DNA of 64,000 nucleotides from an uncultured Faecalibacterium sp. (lineage in GTDB: Bacteria > Bacillota > Clostridia > Oscillospirales > Ruminococcaceae): contig CAKSZS010000002.1 in assembly GCA_934525845.1 (NCBI GenBank), positions 29,265-93,264 of the forward strand, given 5' to 3'. The notes under the pieces were generated by a model. The model did no database searches, was not told the origin of the DNA, and saw only the letters and a program-made list of their open reading frames with translations. The position numbers and the translations under genes were made by a program. Numbering within the stretch: position 1 is the stretch's first letter; each line of letters begins with the position of its first letter. Positions 2,501-31,761 of the stretch are shown one piece after another.

Positions 2501-3496
2501 TTACTCCTCGGCAAAGTTTGCCTTGGGAATGGTGATCTTGCCCATACGGACGTTCTTGTGGTCGAACTTCAGCGCCCAGTTTGCCTTGTTAGTGAACTCA
2601 GCATCGGTGGGGGTGGGCTTGTTGATCTTGTCACCGTCGAAAGAAACACCGTTCGGGTGCAGGATGAAGCTGCGGTTGTTGTACAGGATGTCGGTGCCGC
2701 CTGCCTTAGCCGCGTCGTACTCGGTGTAGTCCGGGGTGATGACCTTGGGGTTTGCGGTCAGCACAGAGCCCTGACCCAGCAGGAAGCTGTTGTAGTTGGT
2801 GCCGTCGTCGGTGCCGCGGTCGTTCTCGATGACCACCAGGCCGTTGATGGTAGGCAGGCTGACCTCCTTCTGCAGCACGTTGGTGATGACGTACTTGTTG
2901 TAGTTCAGCAGGCCCATCTTCTTGTATTCGGCCAGGATCTTGGAGTGCACCACCAGCAGGCCGAACTTGCCGGAGAAGTCGCCCAGGGCGGACTGCTGCA
3001 CGTCGATCAGCTGGTTGGCGGTCACACCGCCGCTCTTGACGGTCAGGGTGTGGCTCGACAGGCCGGACAGACCCAGAACGGAATCGACCAGCTTGACCAG
3101 CAGGCTCTGCTTGTACATCCGCCAGTAGCGGCCGGTGTTGCGGGCCACGGCGGCCATGGGGTCGGCTGCGGTCAGCTCCTGAGTCAGCTCGGTGGCCTTC
3201 CAGGCTTTCATGCGGTCGATGCGGATCCAGGACTGCTTGCCGCCGGAGACCTCAGAGGGTACGTTGTCCTGGGTGCCGTCGCGCACCAGAGGGGCGTCCG
3301 TGTCGGGATCCAGGGGGTTGTAGAAGCGAATGGTGCCCATCGTGCCGCCGTTGTCCAGCGAAGTGGCCAGACTCTGGTCGCTTGCCAGAATGCCGGAAGC
3401 AAGGATGGAATCGGAGAAAGTGGCTTCCTGATCCACGAAGCCCTGGTAGACTTCGGGGTCAAACGGGAAACCACCAAAAGTAGCGGGAATCGGCAT
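2501..3496 (-). CDS. phage major capsid protein
   Basis: 331-aa ORF following the scaffold gene. Its size and sequence character are typical of a capsid protein. Confidence 0.65.
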   Translation of the reverse strand: MPIPATFGGFPFDPEVYQGFVDQEATFSDSILASGILASDQSLATSLDNGGTMGTIRFYNPLDPDTDAPLVRDGTQDNVPSEVSGGKQSWIRIDRMKAWKATELTQELTAADPMAAVARNTGRYWRMYKQSLLVKLVDSVLGLSGLSSHTLTVKSGGVTANQLIDVQQSALGDFSGKFGLLVVHSKILAEYKKMGLLNYNKYVITNVLQKEVSLPTINGLVVIENDRGTDDGTNYNSFLLGQGSVLTANPKVITPDYTEYDAAKAGGTDILYNNRSFILHPNGVSFDGDKINKPTPTDAEFTNKANWALKFDHKNVRMGKITIPKANFAEE

Positions 3497-3511: not shown

Positions 3512-4144
3512 TTAGTGTCGTGCGGCTCTCACCAAAGCAGAGAGCTGCTGGAAAAGTGCCGGGTTGCGGGTGCGCAGGGCCATGCGTTCTGCGCCGGTCA
3601 TTGCCAGAAACTCCTGCAGGGTGGGCTGTGCGTTGCCGCCCTGGCTGCGGGGCTTCGGGACGATGATCGGGTTAGTGGGCTCCTGCGGCTCAGCGCCCGG
3701 CTGCGGGCCTGCGCCGTCCTGCGGGGTGGGAGCGCCCTGCTGGAACAGGTACGGCTTGCGGGATTTGAGATCAGCGAATGCCTGCTTGACATCCTCGGCC
3801 TGATTCTTGCTCTCGCGCAGTGTAGCTCTGTTCGGCAGCAATGCGATAGCATCGTTCTCGTCCAGAGCACCGGCCTCGTGGGCCGCAGCGCGCAGCACAC
3901 CGGTGAAGGTGAACTCCGCAGCCTGCTGGCTCAGCTGGTTGGTCAGGTTGGTGATCTGGCTGCGCAGATCGTTGATGTCCACGCCGTCAAAGGCGGCCAG
4001 ACCCTGCTGGGCGGTGGTCAGCTGTGCCTGCAGGGCCTGTACCGTGGCCTGGTGCGTTGCTTCGTCCAGACCATGCAGCCGCATGACCGCGTTGATCTGC
4101 TCTTCGGTCAGGCCCTCGATGGCCTTCAAGTCCTCACGTTTCAT
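3512..4144 (-). CDS. phage scaffolding protein
   Basis: The start was refined to ATG at 4144 (GGGAGGTaacaccATG). The protein is helical and Q/A/E-rich (MKREDLKAIEGLTEEQ...) and sits upstream of the capsid gene. Confidence 0.55.
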   Translation of the reverse strand: MKREDLKAIEGLTEEQINAVMRLHGLDEATHQATVQALQAQLTTAQQGLAAFDGVDINDLRSQITNLTNQLSQQAAEFTFTGVLRAAAHEAGALDENDAIALLPNRATLRESKNQAEDVKQAFADLKSRKPYLFQQGAPTPQDGAGPQPGAEPQEPTNPIIVPKPRSQGGNAQPTLQEFLAMTGAERMALRTRNPALFQQLSALVRAARH

Positions 4145-4265
4145 GGTGTTACCTCCCGTTGGGCCTACGGCGTTGGTGTCGCGCCGCCGTGCGCGGGCCC
4201 TCTGCACCTCTCTGACACCGGGTGCGTGGTGTAATCTGGGATTATCGTATCACACCCCGGGGCAT

Positions 4266-4282
4266 AAAAACGTTACGAGTTG
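4266..4282 (-). promoter_or_regulatory. conserved late-operon motif AACTCGTAACGTTTTT (minus-strand sense), copy 1 of 4
   Basis: The same ~15-nt motif occurs at 14040, 15186 and 17032, each 50-125 bp upstream of a minus-strand gene start, and here is followed by a -10-like GATAAT. Confidence 0.45.
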
Positions 4283-4313
4283 GCTTGACTGTCTGTAACT
4301 GAGCATACAGAAA

Positions 4314-4532
4314 TCCCTATAAACCCTACGCGGGCGGGCATCAAGCGCGTTCTCGCGCGTATACATTCTTATTTTCTTCTGATAAGGGTCAGGATAAGAG
4401 TTTGAGTATGTTGTGTATGTTTCGCCCCGAAAACCCGCATGAACACTCACTTTTTCGTGCATACAAACTTTGTAACAAGCACGCCCTAGATTTTTGTTGG
4501 TTACAACTGGAATTTTGTTGTTTCTGTATGCA
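4314..4532. repeat. low-GC conserved non-coding element, copy R1 (~219 bp, contains GTATGTT iterons and TTGTAAC/GTTACAA inverted repeat)
   Basis: >90% identical to 31355-31573 and partly to 19158-19330. About 40% GC against ~62% in the flanks. Only short ORFs that do not look like genes. Confidence 0.8.
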
Positions 4533-4539
4533 CAAAAGA

Positions 4540-4580
4540 GCGCCCCGCGCCGGGAGGTTCGTCCTCTTCGGTGCGGGGCG
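4540..4580. terminator. bidirectional rho-independent terminator
   Basis: GC-rich hairpin GCGCCCCGCGCC...GGTGCGGGGCG flanked by a T-run on the plus strand and CTCTTTTG on the minus strand. Confidence 0.6.
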
Positions 4581-4596
4581 TTTTGCGGTGTAGCGG

Positions 4597-4824
4597 TCAG
4601 TTTTCGTCAGGTGCAATGATGAGCTGGGAGCCGTCCGGGAGAACGAATGCCAGCTTTGCGCCGCAGATTGCGGCGGCCTTGGCAAGATCTTTTGCTGACC
4701 AGCTGTCCCGACGTAGCTTGTTGTTCATGGCCTGCGGGGTGGTCATGCCAAATGCTGCGGCAAAGCTGCCCTGGTCGGTTTCGGTCAGCTCCAGCAGGGC
4801 TTTGACTCTGGATGATGTGGTCAT
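4597..4824 (-). CDS. XRE-family helix-turn-helix transcriptional regulator
   Basis: 75-aa ORF oriented divergently from the plus-strand small-gene array. It has an HTH-like region (FAAAFGMTTPQAMNNKLRR). Confidence 0.5.
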   Translation of the reverse strand: MTTSSRVKALLELTETDQGSFAAAFGMTTPQAMNNKLRRDSWSAKDLAKAAAICGAKLAFVLPDGSQLIIAPDEN

Positions 4825-4914
4825 TTGAAATCACTCCTTTCCGCGACAAGGATAGGACAGTTCCAAGCAAAAGTCAACAACAAAAAGAATTTTAAAAATA
4901 AATCAAAAACAACT

Positions 4915-4943
4915 TGACTTTGTGCTTGTGCAGAGTTAACATA
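4915..4943 (+). promoter_or_regulatory. sigma70-like promoter for plus-strand small-gene array (TTGACT-17-TAACAT)
   Basis: TTGACT at 4915, a 17-nt spacer and TAACAT at 4938 lie in the divergent intergenic region. Confidence 0.45.
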
Positions 4944-4991
4944 CAGCCACCGGAAGGGTTCCGGACAAAAAATAACGGAGGTAAACGAAAA

Positions 4992-5159
4992 ATGACAAAT
5001 CTGGAAATGATGAAAAACTACATTCGGGAGCATGACCTTGCTGGCCAGGTGCGTGAGTTGGTAGAGGCCCTTGGTATGAGCCCTGCTTCTGCTATCGAGG
5101 ACGTGTACGACAGCCACACCCTTACCCGTGCAGAGTATGCTGCTAAATATCTCGCGTGA
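4992..5159 (+). CDS. hypothetical small phage accessory protein (55 aa)
   Basis: GGAGGTaaacgaaaaATG start. It is the first gene of the plus-strand array. Confidence 0.45.
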   Translation: MTNLEMMKNYIREHDLAGQVRELVEALGMSPASAIEDVYDSHTLTRAEYAAKYLA

Positions 5160-5176
5160 TGAAGGAGGGCTGAACC

Positions 5177-5356
5177 ATGGAGCGTATGGGTATTGACGAA
5201 ATCAGGGCCGCCGCTGATCCGGTGGCCACCTGCAAGGAGCAGATCCGCCGCTGGAAGATTTCCTACTCCCGCTACTGCGGGAGCCGCCGTGGGGGCCTGT
5301 ACTACGAAGAAAACATCAGAGAGCTGTACGAGCTGCTGAAAGAGTTGGAGGACTGA
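5177..5356 (+). CDS. hypothetical small phage accessory protein (59 aa, not in the ORF track)
   Basis: GAAGGAGGGCTGAACCATG start. Translated by hand as MERMGIDEIRAAADPVATCKEQIRRWKISYSRYCGSRRGGLYYEENIRELYELLKELED. Confidence 0.45.
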   Translation: MERMGIDEIRAAADPVATCKEQIRRWKISYSRYCGSRRGGLYYEENIRELYELLKELED

Positions 5357-5359
5357 ACC

Positions 5360-5641
5360 ATGAAAAAGAATGAACTGTTTGAACTGGCCGAGCGCCTGCA
5401 CATGGAGCCCCTGATGGTGGCCACGGATGTCCGGGAGTGCTATGGCGAGACGGTGATCGTGAACGAATATCAGACCGGGTTCCAGCTGGATGCTGAAGAG
5501 CTGGTGCCGGAGATCGAGCGTCTGATGGGGCCTGCGGATGCTGATAAGGCTGTTACTCCGGTTCGTATGGTAGCAGGTACGAAGTTCTATCGGTATCAGC
5601 TGTTCGCACCGAGCAACTGGTTTGAACGTGAGGAGGACTGA
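5360..5641 (+). CDS. hypothetical small phage accessory protein (93 aa)
   Basis: Stereotyped junction GAGGACTGAACCATG. Confidence 0.5.
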   Translation: MKKNELFELAERLHMEPLMVATDVRECYGETVIVNEYQTGFQLDAEELVPEIERLMGPADADKAVTPVRMVAGTKFYRYQLFAPSNWFEREED

Positions 5642-5644
5642 ACT

Positions 5645-5878
5645 ATGAAGAGCCTGAAAGTTGTGTACGAGTCTGAGGCCACTGACTGTGGCATCCCCGT
5701 CCGGAGGGAGATCGTCGGCGTGGTGAGCGTCAAGTCCGGCTGGTGGGAACGGCTGTGCCGGAGCCGCGACACCGAATCCGCACGATGCGCAATCGACCTT
5801 CGGGTCGCTGCCCAGGAGAAGGCCGCAGGCCGGAAGTTCATTTTCGGCAGCGTTCGTTCGTATCAGCTTGTGAAGTGA
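5645..5878 (+). CDS. hypothetical small phage accessory protein (77 aa)
   Basis: Stereotyped junction GAGGAGGACTGAACTATG. Confidence 0.5.
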   Translation: MKSLKVVYESEATDCGIPVRREIVGVVSVKSGWWERLCRSRDTESARCAIDLRVAAQEKAAGRKFIFGSVRSYQLVK

Positions 5879-5892
5879 GGGGAGAGAGAACT

Positions 5893-6153
5893 ATGAACAA
5901 GGCATATGTTGATTCGCTGCAGCAGGGTGTCCGCGCGCTGGCATTCAATCTGGATACTTACTGGTGCCTGGCACACCATCCGGAGCTGTCGGAGGAGGAG
6001 CGCCAGCGGGATGAATCCGGGTACTTCGGATTTGTCACTGCGCTGGTGATGCTGGGCGGCAGCTACTGGCGGGACGAGAAAGGGCACCACAGGGTGTTCT
6101 TGGCGGGGCTGTCCAGCCGTGACACCGACGAGTACACCAACAAGGAGGGCTGA
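5893..6153 (+). CDS. hypothetical small phage accessory protein (86 aa)
   Basis: The start was refined to ATG at 5893 (GAGGGGAGAGAGAACTATG). Confidence 0.45.
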   Translation: MNKAYVDSLQQGVRALAFNLDTYWCLAHHPELSEEERQRDESGYFGFVTALVMLGGSYWRDEKGHHRVFLAGLSSRDTDEYTNKEG

Positions 6154-6156
6154 ATC

Positions 6157-6585
6157 ATGAAATTCTATTACAAGGGCCAGCTAGTGCGCACCAGCAAGAC
6201 GCACACCTACCACTGGGCGATCCTCGAGGAGCTGGAGGACGGCACTCTGAAGATCTACGGCTGCCGGGAAGACCGGGCGGCAGCCGATGCAGAACTGGCG
6301 CGGGTGCTCCGCAGGGGACACCCCTATGCAATGGTCGCGGCCCTGGACACCGACCCTCAGCCTGCCGCGCTGACCCTCGCCCAGTTCATGGCGCTGGCGC
6401 GGGAGCACTACACCACCGGGGGCGGCAGTTATGCGGAGTGCTGGGACGAGCGTACCTTCGCCTACTTCGTGAAGGAGTTCGGCCCCATCACCAAGGCCCG
6501 GGCGCTGCAGATGTTCGCTGCGGCGTTCGACGAGGAGAAGGAAGAACGGGCAATTGCCCAGGCGGCTAAGAAGGGAGAATGGTGA
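6157..6585 (+). CDS. hypothetical phage accessory protein (142 aa)
   Basis: Junction AAGGAGGGCTGAATCATG. Confidence 0.5.
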   Translation: MKFYYKGQLVRTSKTHTYHWAILEELEDGTLKIYGCREDRAAADAELARVLRRGHPYAMVAALDTDPQPAALTLAQFMALAREHYTTGGGSYAECWDERTFAYFVKEFGPITKARALQMFAAAFDEEKEERAIAQAAKKGEW

Positions 6586-6587
6586 TT

Positions 6588-6836
6588 ATGAAAACGCTGA
6601 ACATTACTTATGACACCGTGGAGATCGAGAACGGTGAGAAGATCGTCGGGGAGACCTGCTACCCCGTCAAGATGCAGGACGCGCTGGCAGAACAGCTGCT
6701 CCGCGACCCCAGCTCCTGCGGGGTCATTGACACGGCCCGCCTCGAGTTCCTGCTGCAAAGTGTGGAGATCCTGCAGGGCCGGAGATTCGTGGACGGCAGC
6801 ATCAAGCATTACGAACTGGTGAAGGGAACTGAATGA
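6588..6836 (+). CDS. hypothetical small phage accessory protein (82 aa)
   Basis: The start was refined to ATG at 6588 (AAGGGAGAAtggtgattATG). Confidence 0.45.
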   Translation: MKTLNITYDTVEIENGEKIVGETCYPVKMQDALAEQLLRDPSSCGVIDTARLEFLLQSVEILQGRRFVDGSIKHYELVKGTE

Positions 6837-7105
6837 TGAAGAAGGTCAACGTGTTGGTCTATAACGATGAACTGGAAACGCTGCAAGCGCAATTTTCTAA
6901 CGAGGATGACGGCATCCAGATTTTCAATCGCAATTCGCTTTGGTCGGATGCCCCGGTGAGCTTGGGTGTCCAGTGGGCGTCCTTCGGGACCAAGAGCCCG
7001 GCGGAAGCTGCCGAGTATGCAAACCGGATTCTGGATGCTGCCATGGCGGCAGAGAACTTCGTGTACAATGGCTATGTAGTGGACTACGGTGGGGGTGATC
7101 AGTGA
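6833..7105 (+). CDS. hypothetical small phage accessory protein (90 aa)
   Basis: Starts at an ATGA overlap with the previous gene. Confidence 0.45.
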   Translation: MMKKVNVLVYNDELETLQAQFSNEDDGIQIFNRNSLWSDAPVSLGVQWASFGTKSPAEAAEYANRILDAAMAAENFVYNGYVVDYGGGDQ

Positions 7106-7383
7106 TGCGTGGATTCCGGGCTGAAATGGGTGGCCAGTTCTGGCATGAAGGTCAGACTGAAAGGAACGGGCATCTGTTCCGGTGGGAGGCCAAGGTTTAC
7201 CCCGAGGCCGGCGAATCTGGTGTCAACGGGGGAAAGGTATCGAAGCTCTGGATCGCCGAGCTGCCTCCCGGCGAGGTCCGGTACTGGCAGGAGGCCGCCT
7301 ACTATGATCGAGGGTGGTGCACGCTGCCGTCCACGCAGGAGGCGATGGATTTCGTGGACGAGCTGCTGGAACATTTCAAATGA
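7102..7383 (+). CDS. hypothetical small phage accessory protein (93 aa)
   Basis: Last gene of the array. A terminator hairpin follows it. Confidence 0.45.
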   Translation: MMRGFRAEMGGQFWHEGQTERNGHLFRWEAKVYPEAGESGVNGGKVSKLWIAELPPGEVRYWQEAAYYDRGWCTLPSTQEAMDFVDELLEHFK

Positions 7384-7395
7384 ATTACTCAACAA

Positions 7396-7430
7396 GAAAA
7401 GCCCTGAAGGTACATTCCCTCAGGGCTTTT
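7396..7430. terminator. bidirectional terminator hairpin AAAAGCCCTGAAGG...CCCTCAGGGCTTTT
   Basis: Perfect inverted repeat flanked by A/T runs on both strands. It sits between the convergent plus-strand array and the lipoprotein gene. Confidence 0.6.
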
Positions 7431-7444
7431 GCTCTGCTTATTTC

Positions 7445-7969
7445 TCAGCGGATCTGCTCGATCTCGCCGGTCTCCATATCCACAAAATATTCCGCCAGAA
7501 CGGTGCCGCTGCCCAGCAGGTCAGCGTCGTGCTCCTCTTTGGAGACGTAGTCCTGCACGGTCACATCCAAACTGCCGCCCGACACCATGATCTTCGTGGT
7601 GGTGTTGTAGTTGAAGTTCACGATGAAGTGGATCTCACTGTCGTCGGTGAAATACTGCTTGTAGTAGTCCAGCGCATACTCGCTCATGTCAATGTTCTCT
7701 GCGATCAGCGAAATGCGCCAGTTGCCGGTTTTGTCGTTGCGGACCTTGCTCACCGTGAACTTGATGCCGTCCAGGGGCGAGGATTCTGCGGTTGCTTCGC
7801 TCTCCGGTGCGGCGCTGGTGCTATCTGCGACGCTCTCGCTCACGGAACTGGCCGGAGTACTGGATGCTGCGCTGCTGGCGGTGCCGGAAGAGCTGCCGCC
7901 GCAGGCGGTCAGGCCGAGTGCGAGGGCGAGCAGCACAATGCCCGCCCGGATTTTATTCTTGATCTTCAT
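7445..7969 (-). CDS. phage-encoded lipoprotein (moron; possible superinfection-exclusion candidate)
   Basis: N-terminus MKIKNKIRAGIVLLALALGLTACGG is a signal peptide with an L-T-A-C lipobox, followed by a Ser/Ala-rich linker. Confidence 0.65.
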   Translation of the reverse strand: MKIKNKIRAGIVLLALALGLTACGGSSSGTASSAASSTPASSVSESVADSTSAAPESEATAESSPLDGIKFTVSKVRNDKTGNWRISLIAENIDMSEYALDYYKQYFTDDSEIHFIVNFNYNTTTKIMVSGGSLDVTVQDYVSKEEHDADLLGSGTVLAEYFVDMETGEIEQIR

Positions 7970-8034: not shown

Positions 8035-9243
8035 TTATTTTCTCGCCTGTGCGGCTGCGCTGGCTGCTTCGCTGCGGCCAAAGCCGGGCACGCTCTCCCG
8101 CAGCTGGTACTGCTGCAGCCCGGTCTGGTGCAGGAAGTCTTTCAGCTTCGCACGAGAGGCTGCCAGCTTGGCCGCTGCGGCCTTTTCTGCGTCCTTCTGG
8201 CCGCTTTCCTTGGCGACCAGAAAAGCCCGCTTGTCGGCCCGGATCTGGCGCTCCTGGGCACGCTGCATCTGGGTGGCCTTATACCGCCCGATGCCCTTGC
8301 CGTTGTAGGTCACAGTGGCAGCATTGATCGCAGCCAGCCGTTCGGGAGTGTAGCTGCGCACACTTGCGCCCTCCCAGTACATCGACCAGTTGTGGGCACA
8401 GTTGGCACCCATGAAGCCCCGCACGTCACCGTAGCCGATGTCGTCCAGTGAGAGGTACCCGTGCCGTCCGCTGCGGCTGACGATTTGGCCCTGCCACCAG
8501 CTGTGGTTGGTCAGATCCTGCCCGCCGTCGCCGGTGCGGGCACCGATGTGGGCGTCCAGCTCCATGAGGTCACAGCCCAGTTGGTCGGCGTTGTATCGGG
8601 TGATCTCTCCGGCGGTCTGGTTGATGCCGGTGCGGGTGGCCCGCAGGACTACCACGTCCAGGGTGTCCACATGGCCGCTGGGGTAGGTGATAGCCCCGAC
8701 GCCCTTTGCCGCCAGCTCCTTCAGCGCCCGGCGGGCTGCATCGTCGGAGCTGAACGCGCCGCTGGCGGCATCCATGTGGGCCATGTCCAGATAATATGCC
8801 AGCTGCCACTGGGTAGTCTCCACCATGTTCTGGTTGCCCATCACCGCCCGGGTCTGGGTCAGGTTGTACAGGGTGTTCATGGTGCGCCGGTAGCCGCTTT
8901 CCAACAGCTGCTGCGCTTCCTCGCTGTCGCCCAGCGGGGTCAGGGTACGCCCGGCGGCTGCTGCATCCCGCACATCCTTGGTGTATGCCTGCTGCATTGC
9001 CTGGGCAAACACAGCGGCTTCCTGGGGCCCCAGCTCCTGCGCGATGTGCTGCATCTGCCGCAGCAGATACGCCCGGCTCGCGCCCAGCGCCTGCGCCCGG
9101 AAGCTCTGCCACTCGGCTGTGGAGGTGATCTTGCCCGCCTTGACGATCCGGCGCACCATGTCCCGCAGGATGCGCTCGTTCAGCTCGTCCCACGGGGCCG
9201 CCATAAGCCCGGCGTAGCCGTTGACTTCCTCCGGGGTCAGCAT
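8035..9243 (-). CDS. phage minor head protein (Mu F / SPP1 gp7-like head morphogenesis)
   Basis: 402-aa ORF directly downstream of the portal gene. Its sequence character matches the Phage_Mu_F family. Confidence 0.6.
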   Translation of the reverse strand: MLTPEEVNGYAGLMAAPWDELNERILRDMVRRIVKAGKITSTAEWQSFRAQALGASRAYLLRQMQHIAQELGPQEAAVFAQAMQQAYTKDVRDAAAAGRTLTPLGDSEEAQQLLESGYRRTMNTLYNLTQTRAVMGNQNMVETTQWQLAYYLDMAHMDAASGAFSSDDAARRALKELAAKGVGAITYPSGHVDTLDVVVLRATRTGINQTAGEITRYNADQLGCDLMELDAHIGARTGDGGQDLTNHSWWQGQIVSRSGRHGYLSLDDIGYGDVRGFMGANCAHNWSMYWEGASVRSYTPERLAAINAATVTYNGKGIGRYKATQMQRAQERQIRADKRAFLVAKESGQKDAEKAAAAKLAASRAKLKDFLHQTGLQQYQLRESVPGFGRSEAASAAAQARK

Positions 9244-9431
9244 GGCGTTACCCGGTGGTAGCGGCCACCCTCCACCGTGACCTCAAAGCCCAGCATCCGG
9301 ACGATGCGCAGGGCCTCGTAGTATTTCTCCCACAGCGCAGGGCTGCGCAGGATGCGTGCATTCGCCATCAGCCAGTCCAGCCGTTCTGCGGTCTGCTTCA
9401 TCCGGGCAAACTTCTCTTTAGCCGTCGCCAT
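9237..9431 (-). CDS. hypothetical small phage protein (64 aa)
   Basis: Short ORF wedged between the portal and minor head genes with overlapping ends. Confidence 0.35.
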   Translation of the reverse strand: MATAKEKFARMKQTAERLDWLMANARILRSPALWEKYYEALRIVRMLGFEVTVEGGRYHRVTPC

Positions 9432-10941
9432 TGTCGATCACTCCTTTCAGGATGTCATTGGCCCCAGCCTCCTGCTGGATGGCCTGCACTGCCCGTGTAG
9501 CGGTCTCTTCGTCCTCGCCGAAGAAATGCATCCGATACTCGGTCTTGCTGCGCAGGCCCATGCTGACCTCCTGCTGCCACTGGGCCATTTCGGACAGGCG
9601 GTCCAGGATGATGCTGTCGTCCCACTTGAAGGAGACGTTCAGTTTGCCCTTCCCGGGGGCGTCCGAGATGTGGTCGGCCCAGTAGTCCAGGGCATCGATC
9701 AGGCCGCGCAGGGCGTCCTCCAGGGCTGCCTGAAGGTCGGAAACGGTGGAGTACAGCTTCTGCTTGCTGCTGACGATCTCGGTGGCGGTCTTCTCCACGT
9801 CCGCCACCTGGGACAGCACGCCGAAGCTCAGGCCCGCGTGGCTCTCTACGTTGCGCAGATACTGGTTCAGGCCGGACAGGTAGCTGCCATCCCGCAGGGC
9901 GGGGGAGAACACCTGGTAGAAGGGCGCTCCGTCCGTGATGCCGGTGTTGACGTTAATGCCATGGAACAGCCGCTCCCGGTGGTGCGGGGCCGTGCTGTCG
10001 ATGGCTTCCGGGGGCACACCGTATTCCTTGAGCGCCTGTGCCTTGGACAGCTGCTGCCCGGCGGCGCTGGGCTTGAGAAATTTCTCGTCGGTGTCCACCG
10101 CCAGCTCGCCGCCCTCGTATTCCCAGTCCAGACGAGTGTACTGTTCGTCGGCGTCGATGATCTGTTTGCGTGCGGGCTCGAACATGGCCGCGCCCAGCTC
10201 ACTGTCCGGCTCCACGCTGTTGACGATGGGCGTCACGAAGTAGCCGACCGGGAGCTTTTCCAGCCCGGTGAGGTAGGCCACGGGCTGGATCTCGTCCCAT
10301 TCGGGGCGGATGCTCAGATCCTCCGGGCTGCCCAGGCTGTCCTGGGTGGCGCTGCGGAAGGCCAGATTGACCACCTTGATGCAGGGGAACTGTGCGGGTG
10401 CTGCAAGGTCGTAATCCTCCAGCTGCGCCAGCTCAGCGTCCCTCAGGTCCTGTCTGCGCTCCAAAACGTGCATCCACTCCATGCGGTGGTAGTAGTTGTC
10501 GTCGTCCTGGATGGTGTCGATGAACACGCCCTCGGTCAGGCTGCCCTCCACGTCGTGTGCCACAGGGAAATACCGGGACGCGTTGCAGAAGGTAATGCCC
10601 AGCTTCTTGCCGCTCTGGTAGGGCTTCCAGATGCCGCTGCCCAGCGCCAGCGCCACCGTGAAGATGCGTCGTCTGCGGGGCGTGAGCACCCGCTGCAGCT
10701 GGGTGTTGATCCAGTCGGCGCGGTCGCTGCCCTCCACGGTCGCTTCCAGCTCCAGCGTGGTCAGCCGGGCCAGCTCGGCGCAGATCAGCGCGGGAAGGTC
10801 CAGCGTGAGGGTCTCGGGGTTCTTGTCCAGCGGCAGGCCGTCAATGGCGGCGTCGTACCATTCCTCGATGGCCCGCTGCATCCGGTCGGTGACCAGGGTC
10901 TTGCAGCCGATGATGTTCTCAATGTCGGCGTGGTTTATCAT
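9418..10941 (-). CDS. phage portal protein
   Basis: 507-aa ORF immediately downstream of the terminase large subunit with a 4-nt overlap. Size and position match SPP1-type portal proteins. Confidence 0.75.
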   Translation of the reverse strand: MINHADIENIIGCKTLVTDRMQRAIEEWYDAAIDGLPLDKNPETLTLDLPALICAELARLTTLELEATVEGSDRADWINTQLQRVLTPRRRRIFTVALALGSGIWKPYQSGKKLGITFCNASRYFPVAHDVEGSLTEGVFIDTIQDDDNYYHRMEWMHVLERRQDLRDAELAQLEDYDLAAPAQFPCIKVVNLAFRSATQDSLGSPEDLSIRPEWDEIQPVAYLTGLEKLPVGYFVTPIVNSVEPDSELGAAMFEPARKQIIDADEQYTRLDWEYEGGELAVDTDEKFLKPSAAGQQLSKAQALKEYGVPPEAIDSTAPHHRERLFHGINVNTGITDGAPFYQVFSPALRDGSYLSGLNQYLRNVESHAGLSFGVLSQVADVEKTATEIVSSKQKLYSTVSDLQAALEDALRGLIDALDYWADHISDAPGKGKLNVSFKWDDSIILDRLSEMAQWQQEVSMGLRSKTEYRMHFFGEDEETATRAVQAIQQEAGANDILKGVIDNGDG

Positions 10942-12227: not shown

Positions 12228-12567
12228 CATCCACAAACACCACCTTTCCATCGTAACCTCTCAGCTCCGGGTGCTCGCTCCAATGCTCCGGGTCGCGGTT
12301 TTTCAAAAAGAAGCACATCGCGCCCAGGTCGCCGCTCTGCGCCTTTTTGAACAGCGCGTTCTCCACGCTGGCCAGCGCTGCCTCCGCGCCTACGCTGATG
12401 GCCTGCTTGATGCGCGGGTCCTGCGTGCACCAGCGCCGGAAGGTGCGCACCGGCACGCCGATCTGTTCGCAGATCTCCGCCTGTGTCAGACCATGCATCG
12501 CCAGCCGCTGCAATCGCAGCAGACCGCTGGGGCTGTTCCATTTGCTGATTTGGGATTCTCGTGCCAA
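12157..12567 (-). CDS. phage terminase small subunit (HTH)
   Basis: 136-aa ORF with an HTH (LTQAEICEQIGVPVRTFRRW) directly upstream of TerL. Confidence 0.55.
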   Translation of the reverse strand: MARESQISKWNSPSGLLRLQRLAMHGLTQAEICEQIGVPVRTFRRWCTQDPRIKQAISVGAEAALASVENALFKKAQSGDLGAMCFFLKNRDPEHWSEHPELRGYDGKVVFVDDIPKTAASKPAETTAETKQPDHP

Positions 12568-15448: not shown

Positions 15449-15476
15449 AGTAAAAAATACCTCCAGATTGATTTTA

Positions 15477-19102: not shown

Positions 19103-19157
19103 TTGTAGTTTCTCCTTCCGTTTTGGGCCGAACATACAAACATACAAAACATACCCA

Positions 19158-19330
19158 AATCCCTATAATCCCTCACGCGAAGCGTATAAGACTCTCACGC
19201 GTATACGCCCGCGCCTTATTTCCTTTTGTTTTTCCCCTTAAGAAGAAAAAGATTGTATGTTGCGTATGTTTTGCCCAGAAAACCCGCATGAACACTCACT
19301 TTTTCGTGCATACAAACTTTTCGGGCTTTG
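19158..19330. repeat. low-GC conserved non-coding element, partial/divergent copy R2, followed by extra GTATGTT iterons to ~19465
   Basis: Shares AAATCCCTATAA..., GTATGTTGCGTATGTTT and CCAGAAAACCCGCATGAACACTCACTTTTTCGTGCATACAAACTTT with R1 and R3. Confidence 0.7.
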
Positions 19331-19483
19331 TATGTTGTCTGTATGTTCTGTATGTTTTGACCGTTTTTGCGGTGCTTGATTTCTTCGGTTCTCTTAATGT
19401 TTGCAAAAATCTCTGTATGTTCGTTACGCCGACCTGCTCTGTATGTTCTGTATGTTCATCAAAGCGGTTTCGGCTCAATGGAG

Positions 19484-21886
19484 TTACTCGGCTTTTCTGC
19501 GCCAGATGCGCTGCACGCCGTAGCAGCCGCACCGCTGCGGGTACTTGCCCGGCGCCCAGTCCGGCAGGCCGTTCAGCACCGCTGCAATGCGCTTGGACTG
19601 CTGCCGGTCAGGGGCCTTTCCGGTGCTGTCCAGGCACTCGCGCCACAGCTCATTGACGCAGATCGTGGTGCGCTGCTGGCCGTCTGCGGGGGCCTCCCCG
19701 GGGCCGTTCTCCCACCAGGCCACCCGCTCGTCCACGGTGCGCTTGGCCCAGTCCAGGGGCACCGGCTTTGCCAGAAATTCGAGGATGTCACCCTCCCAGG
19801 GGTCACGCTCGGTGTGGGCCTGCTGCTCGGCCAGAGCGGCCTTTTGCAGCTCATCCCGGAGGATCAGCTCCTCTCCGGCGTTGAACCGGACCACGGCTTC
19901 GGCCCACACCTGGTCCACCTCGGCGGGGGTCAGATCGTCGTGGACCACCTTCGTCCGGCGCTCAAAGCTGCAGTCTATGGGCCAGTAACGGCGGTTTCCG
20001 GTGGTGTCGCGGAGAAAATCGGAACCGTTGGAGGTGCCGAAGAACACGCACCGGCGGGGGTACTGCACCGTCCGTCGGCCATAGGCGGCCCGGTAGCGGT
20101 CCTCGGTCTGGCTCAGGAACTGCTTGGCCGCTTCGCTCTCGCTGCGGCTGAAGGCCGTCATCTCGCCCAGCTCGACGATCCACACGCCGCGCAGGTTCTC
20201 GCGGGCGTCCTTGCCGTCGAAGCTGGTGATCGAGTCGTTGAACCAGTCCCGGCCCATGCGGGAGAGCAGCAGGCTCTTGCCAATGCCCTGTTTGCCGCTG
20301 AGGATGCAGATCTGGTCGAACTTGCACCCGGGCCGGAAGCACCGGGCCACCGCAGCGACGAACATCTTCCGGGTCACCGCCCGGGTGTAGCTGCTGTCCT
20401 CCGCACCCAAGTAGTCGATGAACAGCCGGTCCAGCCGCTCGGTGCCGTCCCAGACAAGGCCCTGCAGGTACTCCCGCACCGGGTCTTTGGCGTGGTGGCC
20501 GCCGGTCAGGGCCACGGCGTCGGCGGCCTTGTTGACCCCGCTGAAGTGGTAGGCCGTCTCCAGATACCACCGCACACCGGCGTCGTCCTCGTCGGCCCAG
20601 TCCCGCTCCTGCGCCTTGTCGCTCCATGGGAACGGGCCCTTGCACCGCAGCCGCTCGGCAAAGGTGTCATTCCAGATGCGGCCCTTGAGCGCCGGGTCGT
20701 GCTCGAGGATGACCCAGGCGTTCTGGATGGTACAGGCCAGGGCGCCCTTCTGGGTGCGGTCCAGCTTCTCCTGCCATTTGTCCGGGTCGGTGTCTTCGTC
20801 CGGCAGCGGCTCGAAGCCCTCCTTCGCATGGTCTACGGCCTCCTGCCGCAGCAGCGTTGCCGTGGGGCCGTCGCTCTCGGCCAGCGCCCGCATCTGCTGC
20901 CAGCTGGGCAGGGAAGCGGTGGGCGTGCCGGGGGCGGCGTCCGCGTCCAGTTCCCCGAACTTATGGATGCGCACCAGGTCCCAGGCGTTCAGCAGCTTGC
21001 CGCCTGCCGGGTCGGTGCTGTGGTGGCTGTATAAAAAGGTGTCGTTGTCGTAGAGCACCGCACCGGCGGTGGTGCTGCCTGCGGCGTAGGTCAGGCGGCC
21101 AGCGCCGGCATCGACGTACACCCCGGGCAGGAACTTCTCGATCGCTGCCGGAATGTCGTAAGTCCGGCAGAAAGCGCCCACGACGCCCTGTTTGGCGGTG
21201 GGGTCGGCCTGCTTGCCGCCGGGCAGCTTGACCGTCTCCGCAGGGCAGGCGGGCCACTGCCGCACGTCGTGCCAGTCCGCGTAGAGCCACAGCAGGTCGT
21301 CCACGCTGATGCGGCTGCCGTCCTCGGTGGCCCCGCAGACCCACGCGCTGTCGGCTGACCGGCTGGGCCAGTACATCAGGCGCTCGGTCTCGAAGGTGGT
21401 AGGGTCAAACACCTTCATAGTCGGGTCCAGCATCTGGGCGGCCATGCGGGCGCAGGGCTGGTATTCCTCCGGCTGCATCACCCGGTCGGTGGGGAAGATG
21501 GCCCGCAGCCGCGGGTGCTCCGGGTTGTGCTTGCGGGTGGAGTAGACCGCTGCGGTGCCCATGCCCTTGATGGCCTGCACCCATTTAGCGGTGCTGCCGG
21601 GGGCGCAGTTGTCCAGATCCAGCGTGATGAGGCTGCGCCCAGTGCAGCAGCCGCGCTTGCGGCTCCCGTTCCGCAGGCTGCCGCCTACGAAGCCGCCCAC
21701 GTCCTTCAGATCTGCCTGCTTGCTCTTGGGCAGGGCCATGTACTCCGCGTGGGTCTCGGTGCCGCAGTTTCGCTTCATCCGGTCTGCGAGGGTGGTGGTG
21801 AAACCCTCCCAGCCCAGCTCATGCAGTTCCCACTCAGTCGCTGTCCGGCTGTTGGCCACGCTGATTGCGATCGGTGTAGCGCTCAT
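19484..21886 (-). CDS. phage primase / VirE (virulence-associated E) family P-loop protein with N-terminal primase-polymerase-like domain
   Basis: Start ATG at 21886 (AAGGAGGG RBS). The P-loop region is ILSGKQGIGKSLLLSRMG. About 800 aa. Confidence 0.75.
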   Translation of the reverse strand: MSATPIAISVANSRTATEWELHELGWEGFTTTLADRMKRNCGTETHAEYMALPKSKQADLKDVGGFVGGSLRNGSRKRGCCTGRSLITLDLDNCAPGSTAKWVQAIKGMGTAAVYSTRKHNPEHPRLRAIFPTDRVMQPEEYQPCARMAAQMLDPTMKVFDPTTFETERLMYWPSRSADSAWVCGATEDGSRISVDDLLWLYADWHDVRQWPACPAETVKLPGGKQADPTAKQGVVGAFCRTYDIPAAIEKFLPGVYVDAGAGRLTYAAGSTTAGAVLYDNDTFLYSHHSTDPAGGKLLNAWDLVRIHKFGELDADAAPGTPTASLPSWQQMRALAESDGPTATLLRQEAVDHAKEGFEPLPDEDTDPDKWQEKLDRTQKGALACTIQNAWVILEHDPALKGRIWNDTFAERLRCKGPFPWSDKAQERDWADEDDAGVRWYLETAYHFSGVNKAADAVALTGGHHAKDPVREYLQGLVWDGTERLDRLFIDYLGAEDSSYTRAVTRKMFVAAVARCFRPGCKFDQICILSGKQGIGKSLLLSRMGRDWFNDSITSFDGKDARENLRGVWIVELGEMTAFSRSESEAAKQFLSQTEDRYRAAYGRRTVQYPRRCVFFGTSNGSDFLRDTTGNRRYWPIDCSFERRTKVVHDDLTPAEVDQVWAEAVVRFNAGEELILRDELQKAALAEQQAHTERDPWEGDILEFLAKPVPLDWAKRTVDERVAWWENGPGEAPADGQQRTTICVNELWRECLDSTGKAPDRQQSKRIAAVLNGLPDWAPGKYPQRCGCYGVQRIWRRKAE

Positions 21887-30472: not shown

Positions 30473-30648
30473 GGTTCTCACCTCCTGTCTGTATGTTGTG
30501 GTTTCGCAACCATGGCCACAGTATACTGCTGCTCTTGCGGAATGTCAACACAAAAATAGAGATTTCACAATTTTCTTTTCGGCGGGTATTGATTTTTCGC
30601 AACCGGTATATTATACTTACACCAGAACGTGAAGAAAGGAGCTATCCT

Positions 30649-31326: not shown

Positions 31327-31354
31327 CTACCAGCATACGTTGACTACCGAAATT

Positions 31355-31573
31355 CCCATAAAACCCTACGCGGGCGGGCATCAAGCGCGTTCTCGCGCGT
31401 GTATACTCTTATTTTCTTCTGATAAGGGTCAGGATAAGAGTTTGAGTATGTTGAGTATGTTTCGCCCCGAAAACCCGCATGAACACTCACTTTTTCGTGA
31501 CTACAAACTCTGTAACAATTACGTCCTAGATTTTTGTTGGTTACAACTGGAATTTTGTTGTTTCTGTATGCAG
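31355..31573. repeat. low-GC conserved non-coding element, copy R3
   Basis: Near-identical direct repeat of 4314-4532, located between the repressor and integrase genes. Confidence 0.8.
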
Positions 31574-31761
31574 ACGTTGCGCAGGTTTGCATACGCTATC
31601 TGAACCTGAAAATGCAAAAACGCCCCCGGTGCTACCAACACCGAGAGCGTTTGGAATAGATCGGCTTGCTCACGGGGTGAGACAATACCAGACCAGACAC
31701 CTGTATTGTAGCACCTCCGGGCAGGCTTGTCAAAGTGTACCCTTATGGAGGTGTTATTTTT

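What the first reader, a model, noticed from the sequence alone, without database searches (positions are those of the whole stretch)
4314..4532. Triplicated ~220-bp low-GC non-coding element (R1 4314-4532, R2 19158-19330, R3 31355-31573) at module boundaries of the prophage
R1 and R3 are near-identical direct repeats 27 kb apart. R2 is a diverged copy. All three are ~40% GC in a 62% GC genome. All contain tandem GTATGTT iterons (GAGTATGTTGTGTATGTTTCG), the core CCCGAAAACCCGCATGAACACTCACTTTTTCGTGCATACAAAC, and the inverted repeat TTGTAACAA..(24)..TTGGTTACAA. They separate functional modules: R1 lies between the accessory island and the scaffold/capsid late operon, R2 between primase and VRR-NUC, and R3 between repressor and integrase. 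Conservation at the nucleotide level with no credible ORF argues for a DNA or RNA function. Candidates are operator/iteron arrays for a phage regulator, an sRNA, or recombination hotspots for module exchange or programmed deletion. Direct repeats this similar could also mediate RecA-dependent excision of the intervening 27 kb.
Basis: seen in the sequence. Interest (0 to 1): 0.65.

Follow-up and report, generated by a model that had tools for sequence, protein, structure and literature searches.

The report
Phage replication origin in three copies
The three low-GC repeats are this prophage's replication origin (next to its primase-helicase gene) plus two extra copies of the origin's central module elsewhere in the genome. 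This is a three-copy version of arrangements already known from SaPI islands and from phages SPP1 and P4.

Summary
The repeats are real. R1 and R3 match at 210 of 222 positions. R2 shares a 66-nt centre (95%) and about 160 nt overall. GTATGTT occurs 17 times against 1.7 expected.

They are non-coding and are not a structured RNA. R2 fills the gap directly after the stop codon of an 800-aa primase-helicase. That protein is homologous to the SaPI1 Rep initiator (7PDS, E 2e-82; model TM 0.77-0.85). R2 carries 12 GTATG boxes in both orientations, an easily melted A/T tract and a conserved 30-nt core. This is the layout of a SaPI-type origin.

About 35 related gut phage contigs fall into four iteron types: GTATGTT, GTATGCA, GTAGACA and GTTGACA. 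Each type goes with its own variant of the last ~35 residues of Rep. CI, Cro, XRE and a 69-aa HTH protein do not follow the iteron types. In GTTGACA phages all three syntenic elements carry GTTGACA.

R2 is always present. R1 is cleanly absent in GTAGACA phages, and R3 is absent in one phage.

Best reading: R2 is the origin, and R1 and R3 are accessory Rep-binding copies of it, comparable to SPP1 oriR or P4 crr. R1 lies in the same gene gap as SPP1 oriR. Their exact role is inferred, not shown.

The parts
19112..19483 (.). R2: the complete origin-like intergenic region between the stop of the primase-helicase gene and the start of the next gene
   Evidence: It begins directly after the Rep stop codon in the window and in all 33 full-length related loci examined. 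It holds 12 GTATG/CATAC boxes.
19279..19308 (.). R2 copy of the conserved 30-nt core AAAACCCGCATGAACACTCACTTTTTCGTG
   Evidence: Identical in all three window copies. In relatives it has 0-7 mismatches, and the kernel ATGCGGNTTTT survives in all iteron groups.
19131..19154 (-). R2: three iterons in the opposite orientation, just upstream of the ribosome-binding site of the next gene
   Evidence: The same triple is present in GTAGACA and GTTGACA phages, written in their own iteron sequence.
19255..19270 (+). R2: iteron pair next to the core
19309..19356 (.). R2: one inverted iteron (CATAC, 19309) directly after the core, followed by three direct iterons (19330, 19341, 19350)
19415..19456 (+). 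R2: three outer iterons next to the end of the Rep gene
19215..19258 (.). R2: A/T-rich tract, the easiest stretch of the region to melt (candidate unwinding element)
   Evidence: The least stable 30-bp window starts at 19229.
19484..21886 (-). Primase-helicase (VapE / SaPI Rep family), the proposed origin-binding initiator. The variable C-terminal domain (residues 701-800) is encoded at 19487-19786.
   Evidence: Pfam VapE. PHROG families annotated DNA primase and DNA helicase. 7PDS Rep1 at E 2e-82. Predicted structure matches 7PDS at TM 0.77-0.85. The C-terminal domain co-varies with iteron type.
4280..4538 (.). R1: accessory copy of the central origin module, lying between the XRE terminator and the leader of the scaffold gene
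   Evidence: The boundaries come from comparison with the R1-less phage L235.
4430..4459 (.). R1 core 30-mer
4406..4421 (+). R1: iteron pair GTATGTT-GT-GTATGTT
4460..4464 (-). R1: inverted iteron (CATAC) abutting the core
4303..4313 (-). R1: terminal iteron box GCATACAGAAA. It forms an 11-bp inverted repeat with 4522-4532.
4522..4532 (+). R1: terminal iteron box TTTCTGTATGC
4360..4400 (.). R1: A/T-rich tract, the least stable duplex in the region
4467..4520 (.). R1: variable arm with inverted TGTAACA and GGTTACA boxes, shared only with R3 of the same genome
   Evidence: Other phages carry TTGCAAC boxes here.
31327..31600 (.). R3: accessory copy of the central origin module, between the repressor stop codon and a terminator/sRNA locus upstream of the integrase gene
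31470..31499 (.). R3 core 30-mer
31446..31461 (+). R3: iteron pair
31401..31440 (.). R3: A/T-rich tract, the least stable duplex in the region
4540..4585 (.). Hairpin terminator of the XRE gene. It forms the upstream boundary of R1 when read in the direction of the late genes.

Best explanation
R2 (19112-19483) is the prophage's origin of replication. It is an array of 7-nt iterons in both orientations around an A/T-rich tract and a conserved 30-nt core. It lies directly downstream of the gene for an 800-aa primase-helicase of the SaPI Rep / VapE family. The C-terminal winged-helix domain of this protein is proposed to read the iterons, after which the protein would load itself and melt the DNA, as shown for SaPI Rep proteins. 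R1 and R3 are paralogous copies of the central origin module: one inverted iteron, the core, an iteron pair, the A/T tract and a GC-rich block ending in TATAGG. They are kept at two fixed positions, upstream of the scaffold gene and between repressor and integrase. They are bound by the same Rep and act as accessory cis sites. The most likely roles are secondary loading sites (extra origins) or Rep-bound fork barriers that help the switch to concatemer synthesis, as proposed for SPP1 oriR. A P4 crr-like partner of the origin is another possibility. Gene conversion among the three copies keeps their centres alike. Shown by computation: the homology, the anatomy and the co-variation. Inferred: Rep binding, origin firing and the specific role of R1 and R3.
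For: 1. Initiator. Rep residues 369-721 match SaPI1 Rep1 (7PDS) at E 2e-82. An AlphaFold model of residues 441-800 (pLDDT 89.7) matches 7PDS at E 7e-34 and TM 0.77-0.85 over 343-377 columns. Its C-terminal strand-helix-helix-strand-strand unit is included in that match. The N-terminus hits PHROG families annotated as DNA primase and DNA helicase.
2. Published SaPI rule: 6-12 short iterons immediately downstream of the rep ORF, an A/T-rich centre, opposed iterons on each side, and recognition by the winged-helix C-terminal domain (PMC9371898). R2 meets this with 12 boxes, 8 one way and 4 the other, directly after the stop codon. The least stable DNA lies next to the iteron pair.
3. Specificity co-variation across about 35 contigs. 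GTATGTT goes with KYPQRCG..QRIWRRK, GTATGCA with KYPQRHG plus LNSSPNWQPA, GTAGACA/GTAGTC with KYPLRCG..QRSWRRN, and GTTGACA with KNSRRCG..QRVWVRE. Rep residues 701-800 fall to 59% and 52% identity in the last two groups, while the rest of Rep stays at 78-96%.
4. The distant copies follow the same change. All six GTTGACA-group contigs that reach the R1 position carry 6-7 GTTGAC boxes there, in the same layout as the window's R1. Five of six that reach the R3 position carry 6-7 there. GTAGACA phages have GTAGACA in R3. GTATGCA phages have 2-3 GTATGCA boxes in R1.
5. R2 is present in every relative. R1 and R3 are each absent in some natural variants, so they are accessory.
6. Precedent. SPP1 has oriL and oriR, both bound by gp38. 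oriR lies with moron genes between the minor-head-protein gene and the scaffold gene, the same gap as R1 and its island here (PMC6316719).
Against: No binding, melting or initiation data exist, and everything rests on sequence. R1 and R3 iterons are not always of the cognate type. Several GTATGTT-group phages have GTAGACA or GTAGTC boxes in R1 or R3, and L048 (GTATGCA group) has a GTAGACA pair in R3. Natural loss of R1 (GTAGACA group) and of R3 (L045) shows that neither is essential. They could therefore be tolerated relics. The near-invariant 30-nt core has no assigned partner. A promoter-like TTGATG-17-TATAGG block is conserved in all copies, which leaves room for a transcriptional role. Co-variation of distant copies could come from gene conversion from R2 without any selection for function.
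Confidence: 0.7

Rival explanations
1. R1 and R3 are non-functional or only passively useful relics of origin duplication. Their shared core would serve mainly as a patch of homology where related phages recombine and exchange gene modules. R2 alone would be functional.
For: R1 is precisely absent in GTAGACA-group phages and R3 is absent in L045. Some R1 and R3 copies mix iteron types, for example GTAGACA next to GTATGCT, or a GTAGACA pair in a GTATGCA-group phage. This is what crossovers inside the core would produce. The elements sit at module junctions.
Against: The full architecture (inverted iteron, core, iteron pair, A/T tract, TATAGG block, terminal iterons) is kept at both sites across four specificity groups. 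In the GTTGACA group all boxes have been replaced coherently. Relics in 43% GC non-coding DNA would be expected to decay rather than follow the Rep specificity.
Confidence: 0.12
2. The elements are operator arrays for a phage transcription regulator (CI, Cro, XRE or another HTH protein). They would control the adjacent operons, or form repressor-mediated loops.
For: The iterons are short repeated boxes at the starts of operons. Single GTATGTT boxes lie in the cro leader (30491) and over the -10 hexamer of the island promoter (4938). A conserved TTGATG-17-TATAGG block looks like a weak promoter.
Against: The cI-cro region carries a different repeated box, TTTCGCAACC, twice, flanking the promoters. 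cI, cro and the 69-aa HTH protein do not vary with iteron type. XRE is 82-92% identical in phages with different iterons and in phages without R1, and it is missing from GTTGACA phages, which do have R1. Two isolated boxes in 64 kb match the chance expectation of 1.7. R1-less phages keep the same scaffold leader, so the capsid promoter is not inside R1.
Confidence: 0.07
3. The elements are Rep-dependent or late promoters that couple transcription of downstream genes to replication. For R3 the product would be an antisense transcript into cI.
For: On the strand of the late genes, R1 and R3 each follow a strong terminator, and R1 and R2 each precede an operon. The TTGATG/TTATAC - 16-17 nt - TATAGG block is conserved in all copies and groups.
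Against: The -10-like hexamer lacks the conserved final T, and the promoter scan found nothing inside the elements. GTAGACA-group phages lack R1 yet keep the terminator, the leader and the scaffold operon. A conserved extended -10-like TGATACGAT lies outside R1, in the leader.
Confidence: 0.05
4. The elements encode a small regulatory RNA or a cis-acting RNA structure.
For: Nucleotide-level conservation without an ORF. R1 is followed by a terminator on the plus strand.
Against: RNAalifold on 26 diverse copies gives -1.1 and 0.0 kcal/mol on the two strands, no better than column shuffles. Rfam gives nothing at gathering thresholds. In the permissive scans the only hit is a chance snoRNA match at E 0.26. 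Conservation follows short DNA boxes that are swapped as whole units, not base pairs.
Confidence: 0.04
5. The element is a miniature transposable element (MITE-like) that has inserted three times.
For: There is an 11-bp terminal inverted repeat, GCATACAGAAA...TTTCTGTATGC. R1 shows a clean presence/absence polymorphism.
Against: The terminal repeats are themselves iterons. There is no target-site duplication at the empty site. The copies occupy only three syntenic sites. The 30-mer occurs in 3 of about 185,000 species genomes, once per fetched stretch.
Confidence: 0.02

Closest known systems
SaPI replication origins and their Rep / PriRep self-loading helicases (Staphylococcus aureus pathogenicity islands; PMC9371898, structures 7PDS and 7OLA)
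   Same: The initiator is homologous (E 2e-82; TM 0.77-0.85 including the C-terminal winged-helix part). Primase and helicase are fused, as in SaPI5 PriRep5. The origin lies immediately after the rep stop codon. It has about a dozen very short iterons in both orientations around an A/T-rich tract. Iteron sequence and C-terminal domain change together between relatives.
   Different: The host element is a roughly 40-kb temperate tailed phage of gut Oscillospiraceae-type Firmicutes with its own family-A DNA polymerase, not a satellite. There is a near-invariant 30-nt core between opposed iterons. Two extra copies of the central origin module lie 12 and 15 kb away, whereas SaPIs are described with a single origin.
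Bacillus phage SPP1 oriL / oriR (origin-binding protein gp38)
   Same: One phage genome holds more than one copy of the origin repeats plus an A/T-rich tract, recognised by one initiator. The second copy sits in the late region, with moron genes, between the minor-head-protein gene (gene 7 family, PF06152) and the scaffold gene. That is the same gap as R1 and its island. Spacing is about 13 kb in SPP1 and 14.8 kb here. A Holliday-junction-resolvase-like nuclease is encoded in the replication region.
   Different: SPP1 uses a DnaD-like gp38 with a separate loader (gp39) and a DnaB-type helicase (gp40). oriL lies inside gene 38 rather than after it. oriR abuts gene 7 (SPP1 4878-4948) whereas R1 abuts the scaffold gene. 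SPP1 has two copies, not three, and being virulent it has no repressor-integrase junction.
Satellite phage P4 ori and crr (alpha protein).
   Same: A single multifunctional primase-helicase with a C-terminal origin-binding domain. Its iterons occur both in the origin and in a second, distant cis-acting region.
   Different: P4 crr is a pair of 120-bp repeats 4.5 kb from ori and is essential in cis. Here the extra copies are full paralogues of the origin centre, lie 12-15 kb away, and are each dispensable in natural variants. Homology between this Rep and P4 alpha was not tested.
Auxiliary iteron clusters of iteron plasmids, such as P1 incA and F incC. From my own knowledge.
   Same: Extra iteron clusters outside the origin, bound by the same initiator, that could titrate it or pair with the origin.
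   Different: Those clusters contain iterons only and control copy number of a stably maintained plasmid. Here the whole origin centre is copied, including the A/T tract and the core, and the replicon is a lytic-cycle phage.

Membership tests
SaPI-type Rep/iteron origin | The initiator is a Rep/VapE-family self-loading helicase | tested here: met
   Pfam VapE at E 9e-83. 7PDS Rep1 at E 2e-82 over residues 369-721. Foldseek match to 7PDS at E 7e-34 and TM 0.77-0.85.
SaPI-type Rep/iteron origin | A C-terminal winged-helix domain reads the iterons | tested here: inconclusive
   The model shows a confident strand-helix-helix-strand-strand unit at residues 741-797, included in the alignment to Rep1. 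Its last ~35 residues co-vary with iteron type. Actual DNA contact cannot be tested here.
SaPI-type Rep/iteron origin | 6-12 short iterons immediately downstream of the rep ORF | tested here: met
   12 GTATG/CATAC boxes (11 of them the full 7-mer GTATGTT) lie in the 372-nt gap that starts at the Rep stop codon. The same placement is seen in 33 relatives.
SaPI-type Rep/iteron origin | A/T-rich centre with iterons on both sides pointing in opposite directions | tested here: met
   Three minus-oriented boxes (19133-19154) and two plus-oriented boxes (19255-19270) flank the least stable tract (19229-19258). A further opposed pair flanks the core.
SaPI-type Rep/iteron origin | Rep binds and melts its cognate origin specifically | not testable with these tools
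   Only co-variation of the C-terminal domain with the iterons is available.
SaPI-type Rep/iteron origin | One origin per element | tested here: not met
   Three copies of the origin centre per genome, in the window and in most relatives.
SPP1-type duplicated origin (oriL/oriR) | Two or more copies of the origin repeats plus an A/T tract in one phage genome | tested here: met
   The SPP1 pair itself was re-found: gene 38 nt 373-441 against SPP1 4878-4948, 83% identity.
SPP1-type duplicated origin (oriL/oriR) | The extra copy lies in the late region, between the minor-head-protein and scaffold genes, together with moron genes | tested here: met
   Here the order is PF06152 gene 8035-9243, island 4597-7969, R1, scaffold 3512-4144. 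SPP1 gene order and the text of PMC6316719 show the same gap.
SPP1-type duplicated origin (oriL/oriR) | The initiator is a gp38-type (DnaD-like) origin-binding protein with a separate loader and a DnaB helicase | tested here: not met
   The replication module here is DUF2800, an Enc34-type SSB, a family-A polymerase, VapE Rep and an SNF2 helicase. No gp38, gp39 or gp40 homologue was detected.
SPP1-type duplicated origin (oriL/oriR) | The initiator bound at the extra copy stalls forks and triggers the theta-to-sigma switch | not testable with these tools
   This is only a proposal even for SPP1 (PMC6316719; PMC3485210 abstract).
P4 ori/crr | A distant iteron-bearing region that is required in cis for replication | not testable with these tools
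   The iterons are present. Natural variants lacking R1 or R3 argue against an absolute requirement.
Rfam RNA family / structured sRNA | Match to a covariance model, or a conserved secondary structure with covariation | tested here: not met
MITE-like mobile element | Terminal inverted repeats, target-site duplication, and many dispersed copies | tested here: not met
   An 11-bp inverted repeat exists, but it is made of iterons. There is no duplication at the empty site. The copies occupy three syntenic sites, and the 30-mer occurs in 3 of about 185,000 species genomes.
CI/Cro operator set | The same boxes occur at the cI-cro promoters, and they co-vary with the repressor | tested here: not met
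   The cI-cro region uses TTTCGCAACC twice. cI and cro identity does not follow iteron type.

The most novel reading that the evidence does not exclude
The three origin modules work together as a system. Rep loaded at R2 starts replication. Rep bound at R1 and R3, spaced at roughly one-third intervals on the circular genome, either fires as extra origins or arrests forks to trigger concatemer formation. The near-invariant 30-nt core, unchanged across at least five iteron specificities, would be a previously unrecognised universal loading or priming site for PriRep-type primase-helicases. It would also double as the homology patch through which these gut phages exchange modules.
Probability: 0.2. 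Interest if true: 0.65.

Novelty: new variant of a known kind. Interest (0 to 1): 0.45.

Why it matters
It assigns a replication origin and its initiator to a large, uncultured family of human-gut prophages, at least 35 IMG/VR contigs with no cultured relative above 46% Rep identity. It gives a natural series of four or five matched pairs of iteron and Rep C-terminal domain, which could be used to work out how SaPI-type winged-helix domains read DNA. It shows that the poorly understood SPP1 'second origin' arrangement recurs with an unrelated initiator, in three copies. Natural knock-outs exist (phages without R1 or without R3), so the question of what extra origin copies do in a phage becomes directly testable. 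For genome annotation, it explains a conspicuous repeat that could otherwise be taken for a mobile element, an sRNA or an assembly artefact.

Tried and rejected
1. Coding potential. A minus-strand ORF (MHEKVSVHAGF...) runs through the core and some core substitutions looked synonymous. Across 50+ copies the frame stops after 10 to more than 50 codons and has no ribosome-binding site, so it was rejected.

2. Structured RNA. RNAalifold on both strands and three permissive Rfam scans gave nothing.

3. Sigma-70 promoters inside the elements. None was found by the scan. The TTGATG-17-TATAGG block remains unexplained.

4. The idea that the TTGCAAC / TGTAACA boxes in the R1 and R3 arms are CI operators. 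They are not shared with the cI-cro region.

5. Search for a cultured relative. BLASTN of R1 against INPHARED found nothing. The best Rep match by tblastn is 46% identical.

The R1 copy of GTTGACA phages was reached instead through the gene-7-like protein.

7. An automatic table of iteron types missed many elements. It was redone with positional anchors, which still miss R1 in the GTTGACA group. That gap is covered.

8. Literature search for P4 crr found no open-access primary paper, so the P4 comparison rests on my own knowledge.
Full report
**Observation**

The three copies exist as described. R1 (4311-4532) and R3 (31351-31572) are 222-nt direct repeats 27,040 nt apart, matching at 210 of 222 positions. 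R2 shares a 66-nt centre (19255-19320) at 95% identity, and about 131 of 161 positions when aligned with gaps from 19155. Each copy is 43% GC in a 62% GC window.

GTATGTT occurs 17 times against 1.68 expected, and none of 100 shuffles reached that number. Fifteen of the 17 lie in the three elements. Three details need correcting:
- The quoted strings are exact only in R1.
- The TTGTAACAA...TTGGTTACAA inverted repeat is absent from R2.
- The R2 iteron field fills the whole 19112-19483 gap, with 12 GTATG/CATAC boxes.

**Context**

The prophage reads leftwards from the integrase. All genes below are on the minus strand except the integrase and the repressor.

| Feature | Coordinates |
|---|---|
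| Integrase (+) | 31762-32925 |
| R3 | 31327-31600 |
| S24/HTH repressor (+) | 30649-31326 |
| Cro-like gene | 30251-30472 |
| Bro/ANT antirepressor | 29454-30224 |
| MazF-like gene | 28524-28883 |
| DUF2800 nuclease | 24969-25886 |
| Enc34-type SSB | 24419-24964 |
| Family-A DNA polymerase | 22358-24355 |
| 800-aa VapE primase-helicase (Rep) | 19484-21886 |
| R2 | 19112-19483 |
| Endonuclease / Holliday-junction-resolvase-like gene | 18764-19102 |
| SNF2 helicase | 17356-18729 |
| ParB-methyltransferase | 12715-13980 |
| Large terminase | 10938-12251 |
| SPP1-type portal | 9418-10941 |
| Minor capsid protein 2 | 8035-9243 |
| Accessory island, ending in a small XRE gene and a terminator | 4597-7969 |
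| R1 | 4280-4538 |
| Scaffold | 3512-4144 |
| Major capsid | 2501-3496 |

**Not coding, not RNA, not a host repeat**

A minus-strand ORF through the core is open in R1 and R3. Across more than 50 copies it stops after anywhere from 10 to more than 50 codons, and it has no ribosome-binding site.

RNAalifold on 26 diverse copies gives -1.1 and 0.0 kcal/mol on the two strands, no better than column-shuffled alignments. Rfam finds nothing at gathering thresholds. In the permissive scans the only hit is a chance snoRNA match at E 0.26.

The invariant 30-mer AAAACCCGCATGAACACTCACTTTTTCGTG occurs in 17 stretches of DNA from IMG/VR viral contigs, but in only 3 of about 185,000 species-representative genomes, each time in a prophage setting. 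No cultured phage is close. BLASTN of R1 finds nothing, and the best Rep match is 46% identical.

**What the relatives show**

I collected loci through Rep (37 loci), the scaffold protein (39) and the gene-7-like protein (53). R2 always sits directly after the Rep stop codon. R3 sits between repressor and integrase, and R1 sits upstream of the scaffold gene.

All copies share one architecture. Read in the direction of the late genes, this is:
- one inverted iteron;
- the core, whose kernel GAAAAAG...ATGCGGNTTTT survives in every group;
- an iteron pair;
- an A/T tract (GAAGAAAANAAG);
- a GC-rich stretch ending in TTGATG or TTATAC, then 16-17 nt, then TATAGG;
- one to three iterons in the opposite orientation.

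R2 adds six more iterons towards the Rep gene. In each window copy the least stable 30-bp duplex is the A/T tract beside the iteron pair, starting at 4360, 19229 and 31401.

**The key result: iterons change together with the end of Rep**

The core is nearly constant, but the 7-nt iterons are swapped as whole units between phages, and the swap follows the C-terminus of Rep.

| Iteron type | Boxes in R2 | Rep C-terminal motif |
|---|---|---|
| GTATGTT | 9-13 | KYPQRCG.YG.QRIWRRK |
| GTATGCA | 6-7 | KYPQRHGPYGVQRIWRRK, preceded by LNSSPNWQPA |
| GTAGACA / GTAGTC | 13-14 | KYPLRCGPYGMQRSWRRN |
| GTTGACA | 10-12 | KNSRRCGPYGTQRVWVRE |

Rep residues 701-800 fall to 59% and 52% identity in the last two groups. 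The rest of the protein stays at 78-96%. No other protein in the region behaves this way:
- cI and cro vary independently of iteron type.
- A 69-aa HTH protein is 88-93% identical across three iteron types.
- XRE is 82-92% identical across three types, including phages without R1. It is missing from GTTGACA phages, which do have R1.

The cI-cro region carries its own repeated box, TTTCGCAACC, twice.

**Rep is a SaPI-type initiator**

Residues 369-721 align to SaPI1 Rep1 (PDB 7PDS) at E 2e-82. An AlphaFold model of residues 441-800 (82-sequence alignment, pLDDT 89.7) ends in a strand-helix-helix-strand-strand unit. It matches 7PDS at E 7e-34 and TM 0.77-0.85 over 343-377 columns, which covers the C-terminal domain. 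The N-terminal 440 residues hit PHROG families annotated as DNA primase and DNA helicase.

For SaPIs the published rule is as follows (PMC9371898). Rep's C-terminal winged helix recognises penta- or hexanucleotide iterons. Six to twelve of these lie immediately downstream of the rep ORF. They surround an A/T-rich region, with at least two iterons on each side pointing in opposite directions. Rep loads itself without a separate loader. R2 fits this description point by point. I conclude that R2 is the phage origin, with high confidence for a purely computational call.

**R1 and R3**

These are copies of the origin centre, not just of its iterons, and their iterons follow the Rep type.
- In GTTGACA phages, R3 has 6-7 GTTGAC boxes (5 of 6 contigs) and R1 has 6-7 (6 of 6 contigs), in the same layout as the window's elements.
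- GTAGACA phages have GTAGACA boxes in R3.
- GTATGCA phages have 2-3 GTATGCA boxes in R1, and GTATGTT phages usually have two or more GTATGTT.

The match is not perfect. Several R1 and R3 copies mix types, for example GTAGACA next to GTATGCT, and L048 has a GTAGACA pair in a GTATGCA-group phage. This fits recombination between phages inside the shared core.

Within the window, R1 and R3 share an arm with TGTAACA and GGTTACA boxes. Other phages have TTGCAAC boxes at that place. The 66-nt centre is 94-95% identical in all three window copies, although in other phages the R2 core differs from the 30-mer at 2-6 positions. Both facts point to gene conversion among the copies within one genome.

**Natural knock-outs**

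In GTAGACA-group phages the XRE terminator joins directly to the scaffold leader (...CTTTTC-AAA-TCGTAACG...), with no R1 and no target-site duplication. This has three consequences. R1 is dispensable. Its limits are about 4280-4538. The capsid-operon promoter is not inside it; a conserved extended -10-like TGATACGAT lies in the leader at 4241-4252. One GTTGACA phage (L045) lacks R3 but keeps R1 and R2. R2 is never missing. R1 and R3 are therefore accessory.

**Mechanism proposed**

Shown by computation: the homology, the origin anatomy, the co-variation of iterons with the Rep C-terminus, and the accessory status of R1 and R3.

Inferred: the Rep C-terminal domain binds the iterons, and hexamers assemble on opposed iterons around the core and A/T tract of R2 to open the DNA.

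Also inferred: Rep binds R1 and R3 as well. What it does there is open. I consider three roles.
- **Secondary origins.** They keep the A/T tract, the core and opposed iterons.
- **Fork barriers that promote the switch to concatemer synthesis.** This is what has been proposed for SPP1 oriR, and a resolvase-like nuclease gene follows R2.
- **Partner or titration sites for the origin,** like P4 crr or plasmid incA.

I cannot choose between these with sequence alone.

**Comparison with known systems**

SaPI origins are the closest by homology. They differ in having a single origin and no conserved core.

SPP1 is the closest by arrangement. It has two origin copies bound by one initiator. The second lies, with moron genes, between gene 7 and the scaffold gene (PMC6316719). 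I re-found the SPP1 pair at gene 38 nt 373-441 and SPP1 4878-4948. The SPP1 initiator set (DnaD-like gp38, loader, DnaB helicase) is unrelated to this Rep.

P4 ori/crr is a functional analogue, cited from my own knowledge.

**Verdict**

The finding is real. Its non-coding, DNA-level, iteron-bearing nature was read correctly, but the binding partner and the function were not. It is a replication origin with two accessory paralogues: a new three-copy variant of known kinds of origin organisation, in an uncultured gut phage family. Interest is moderate. Nothing here is categorically new. The matched iteron and C-terminal-domain series, the invariant core and the natural R1-less and R3-less phages make it a good system for asking what extra origin copies do.

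Noticed in passing
window 31606-31733, minus strand: A candidate small RNA gene lies between R3 and the integrase. It has a near-consensus promoter (TTGACA-17-TGnTACAAT, 31733-31705) and, about 50 nt downstream, a 16-bp terminator (31652-31618). The ~93-nt product folds at -38 kcal/mol (z = -4.2). Promoter and terminator are conserved even in GTTGACA-group phages (L043 1560-1680, L045 1475-1590). It diverges from the integrase start codon and would be antisense to any integrase leader that starts upstream. There is no Rfam match.
   Followed up: partly
window 4467-4520 and 31507-31560: The arms of R1 and R3 carry inverted TGTAACA and GGTTACA boxes. These match the iterons (GGTTACA/TGTAACC) that flank the same 30-nt core in locus L001. 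Other phages have TTGCAAC boxes at this position. The arm variant is shared by R1 and R3 of one genome, which suggests gene conversion. The protein that binds these boxes, if any, is unknown.
   Followed up: partly
L001 3290-3560 (Oscillospiraceae MAG RKCM01000200.1): The identical 30-nt core is flanked by a fifth iteron type: GGTTACA three times, with inverted TGTAAC twice. It sits at the edge of a prophage-like region, next to a cluster of host tRNA genes. It is not after a Rep gene.
   Followed up: partly
window 30473-30648: The cI-cro switch region has divergent promoters (minus strand 30548-30520, 11 of 12 matches; plus strand 30589-30617). A box TTTCGCAACC is repeated at 30502 and 30595 and is probably the repressor operator. 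It is unrelated to the origin iterons.
   Followed up: partly
window 4241-4252, minus strand (also L235 9570-9600): An extended -10-like TGATACGAT lies in the leader of the scaffold gene. It is conserved in phages with and without R1, and is the likely promoter region of the capsid operon.
   Followed up: partly
window 28524-28883 and 28898-29221, minus strand: A MazF/PemK-like toxin gene (Pfam E 9e-17) sits inside the early operon, preceded by an unannotated 107-aa ORF that could be its antitoxin.
   Followed up: no
window 4597-7969: An accessory island lies between the head-assembly genes. It has eight small plus-strand ORFs driven by their own promoter (4914-4942), a 174-aa minus-strand ORF, and a conserved 75-aa XRE-like gene with a strong terminator. 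A single AACATAC box overlaps the -10 hexamer of the island promoter (4938-4944), but one such box is within chance expectation.
   Followed up: partly
window 15474-16307 and 12715-13980, minus strand: There is a weak ADP-ribosyltransferase-like match (E 1e-4, below the Pfam cut-off), and a fusion of a ParB N-terminal domain with a DNA methyltransferase upstream of the terminase gene.
   Followed up: no
window 63189-63441, plus strand: A T-box leader (Rfam RF00230, 116.6 bits) lies in the host part of the window. This fits a Firmicutes host.
   Followed up: no
L003 (CAVKKE010000008.1, labelled Barnesiella intestinihominis): A Bacteroidota bin contains an R3-type element with the repressor flank of this Firmicutes phage family. 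This is probably a binning error.
   Followed up: no
L045 1475-2030 and L235 9480-9620: Natural variants lack one accessory copy. L045 (GTTGACA group) has an unrelated small gene where R3 should be. GTAGACA-group phages have the terminator joined directly to the scaffold leader where R1 should be.
   Followed up: yes
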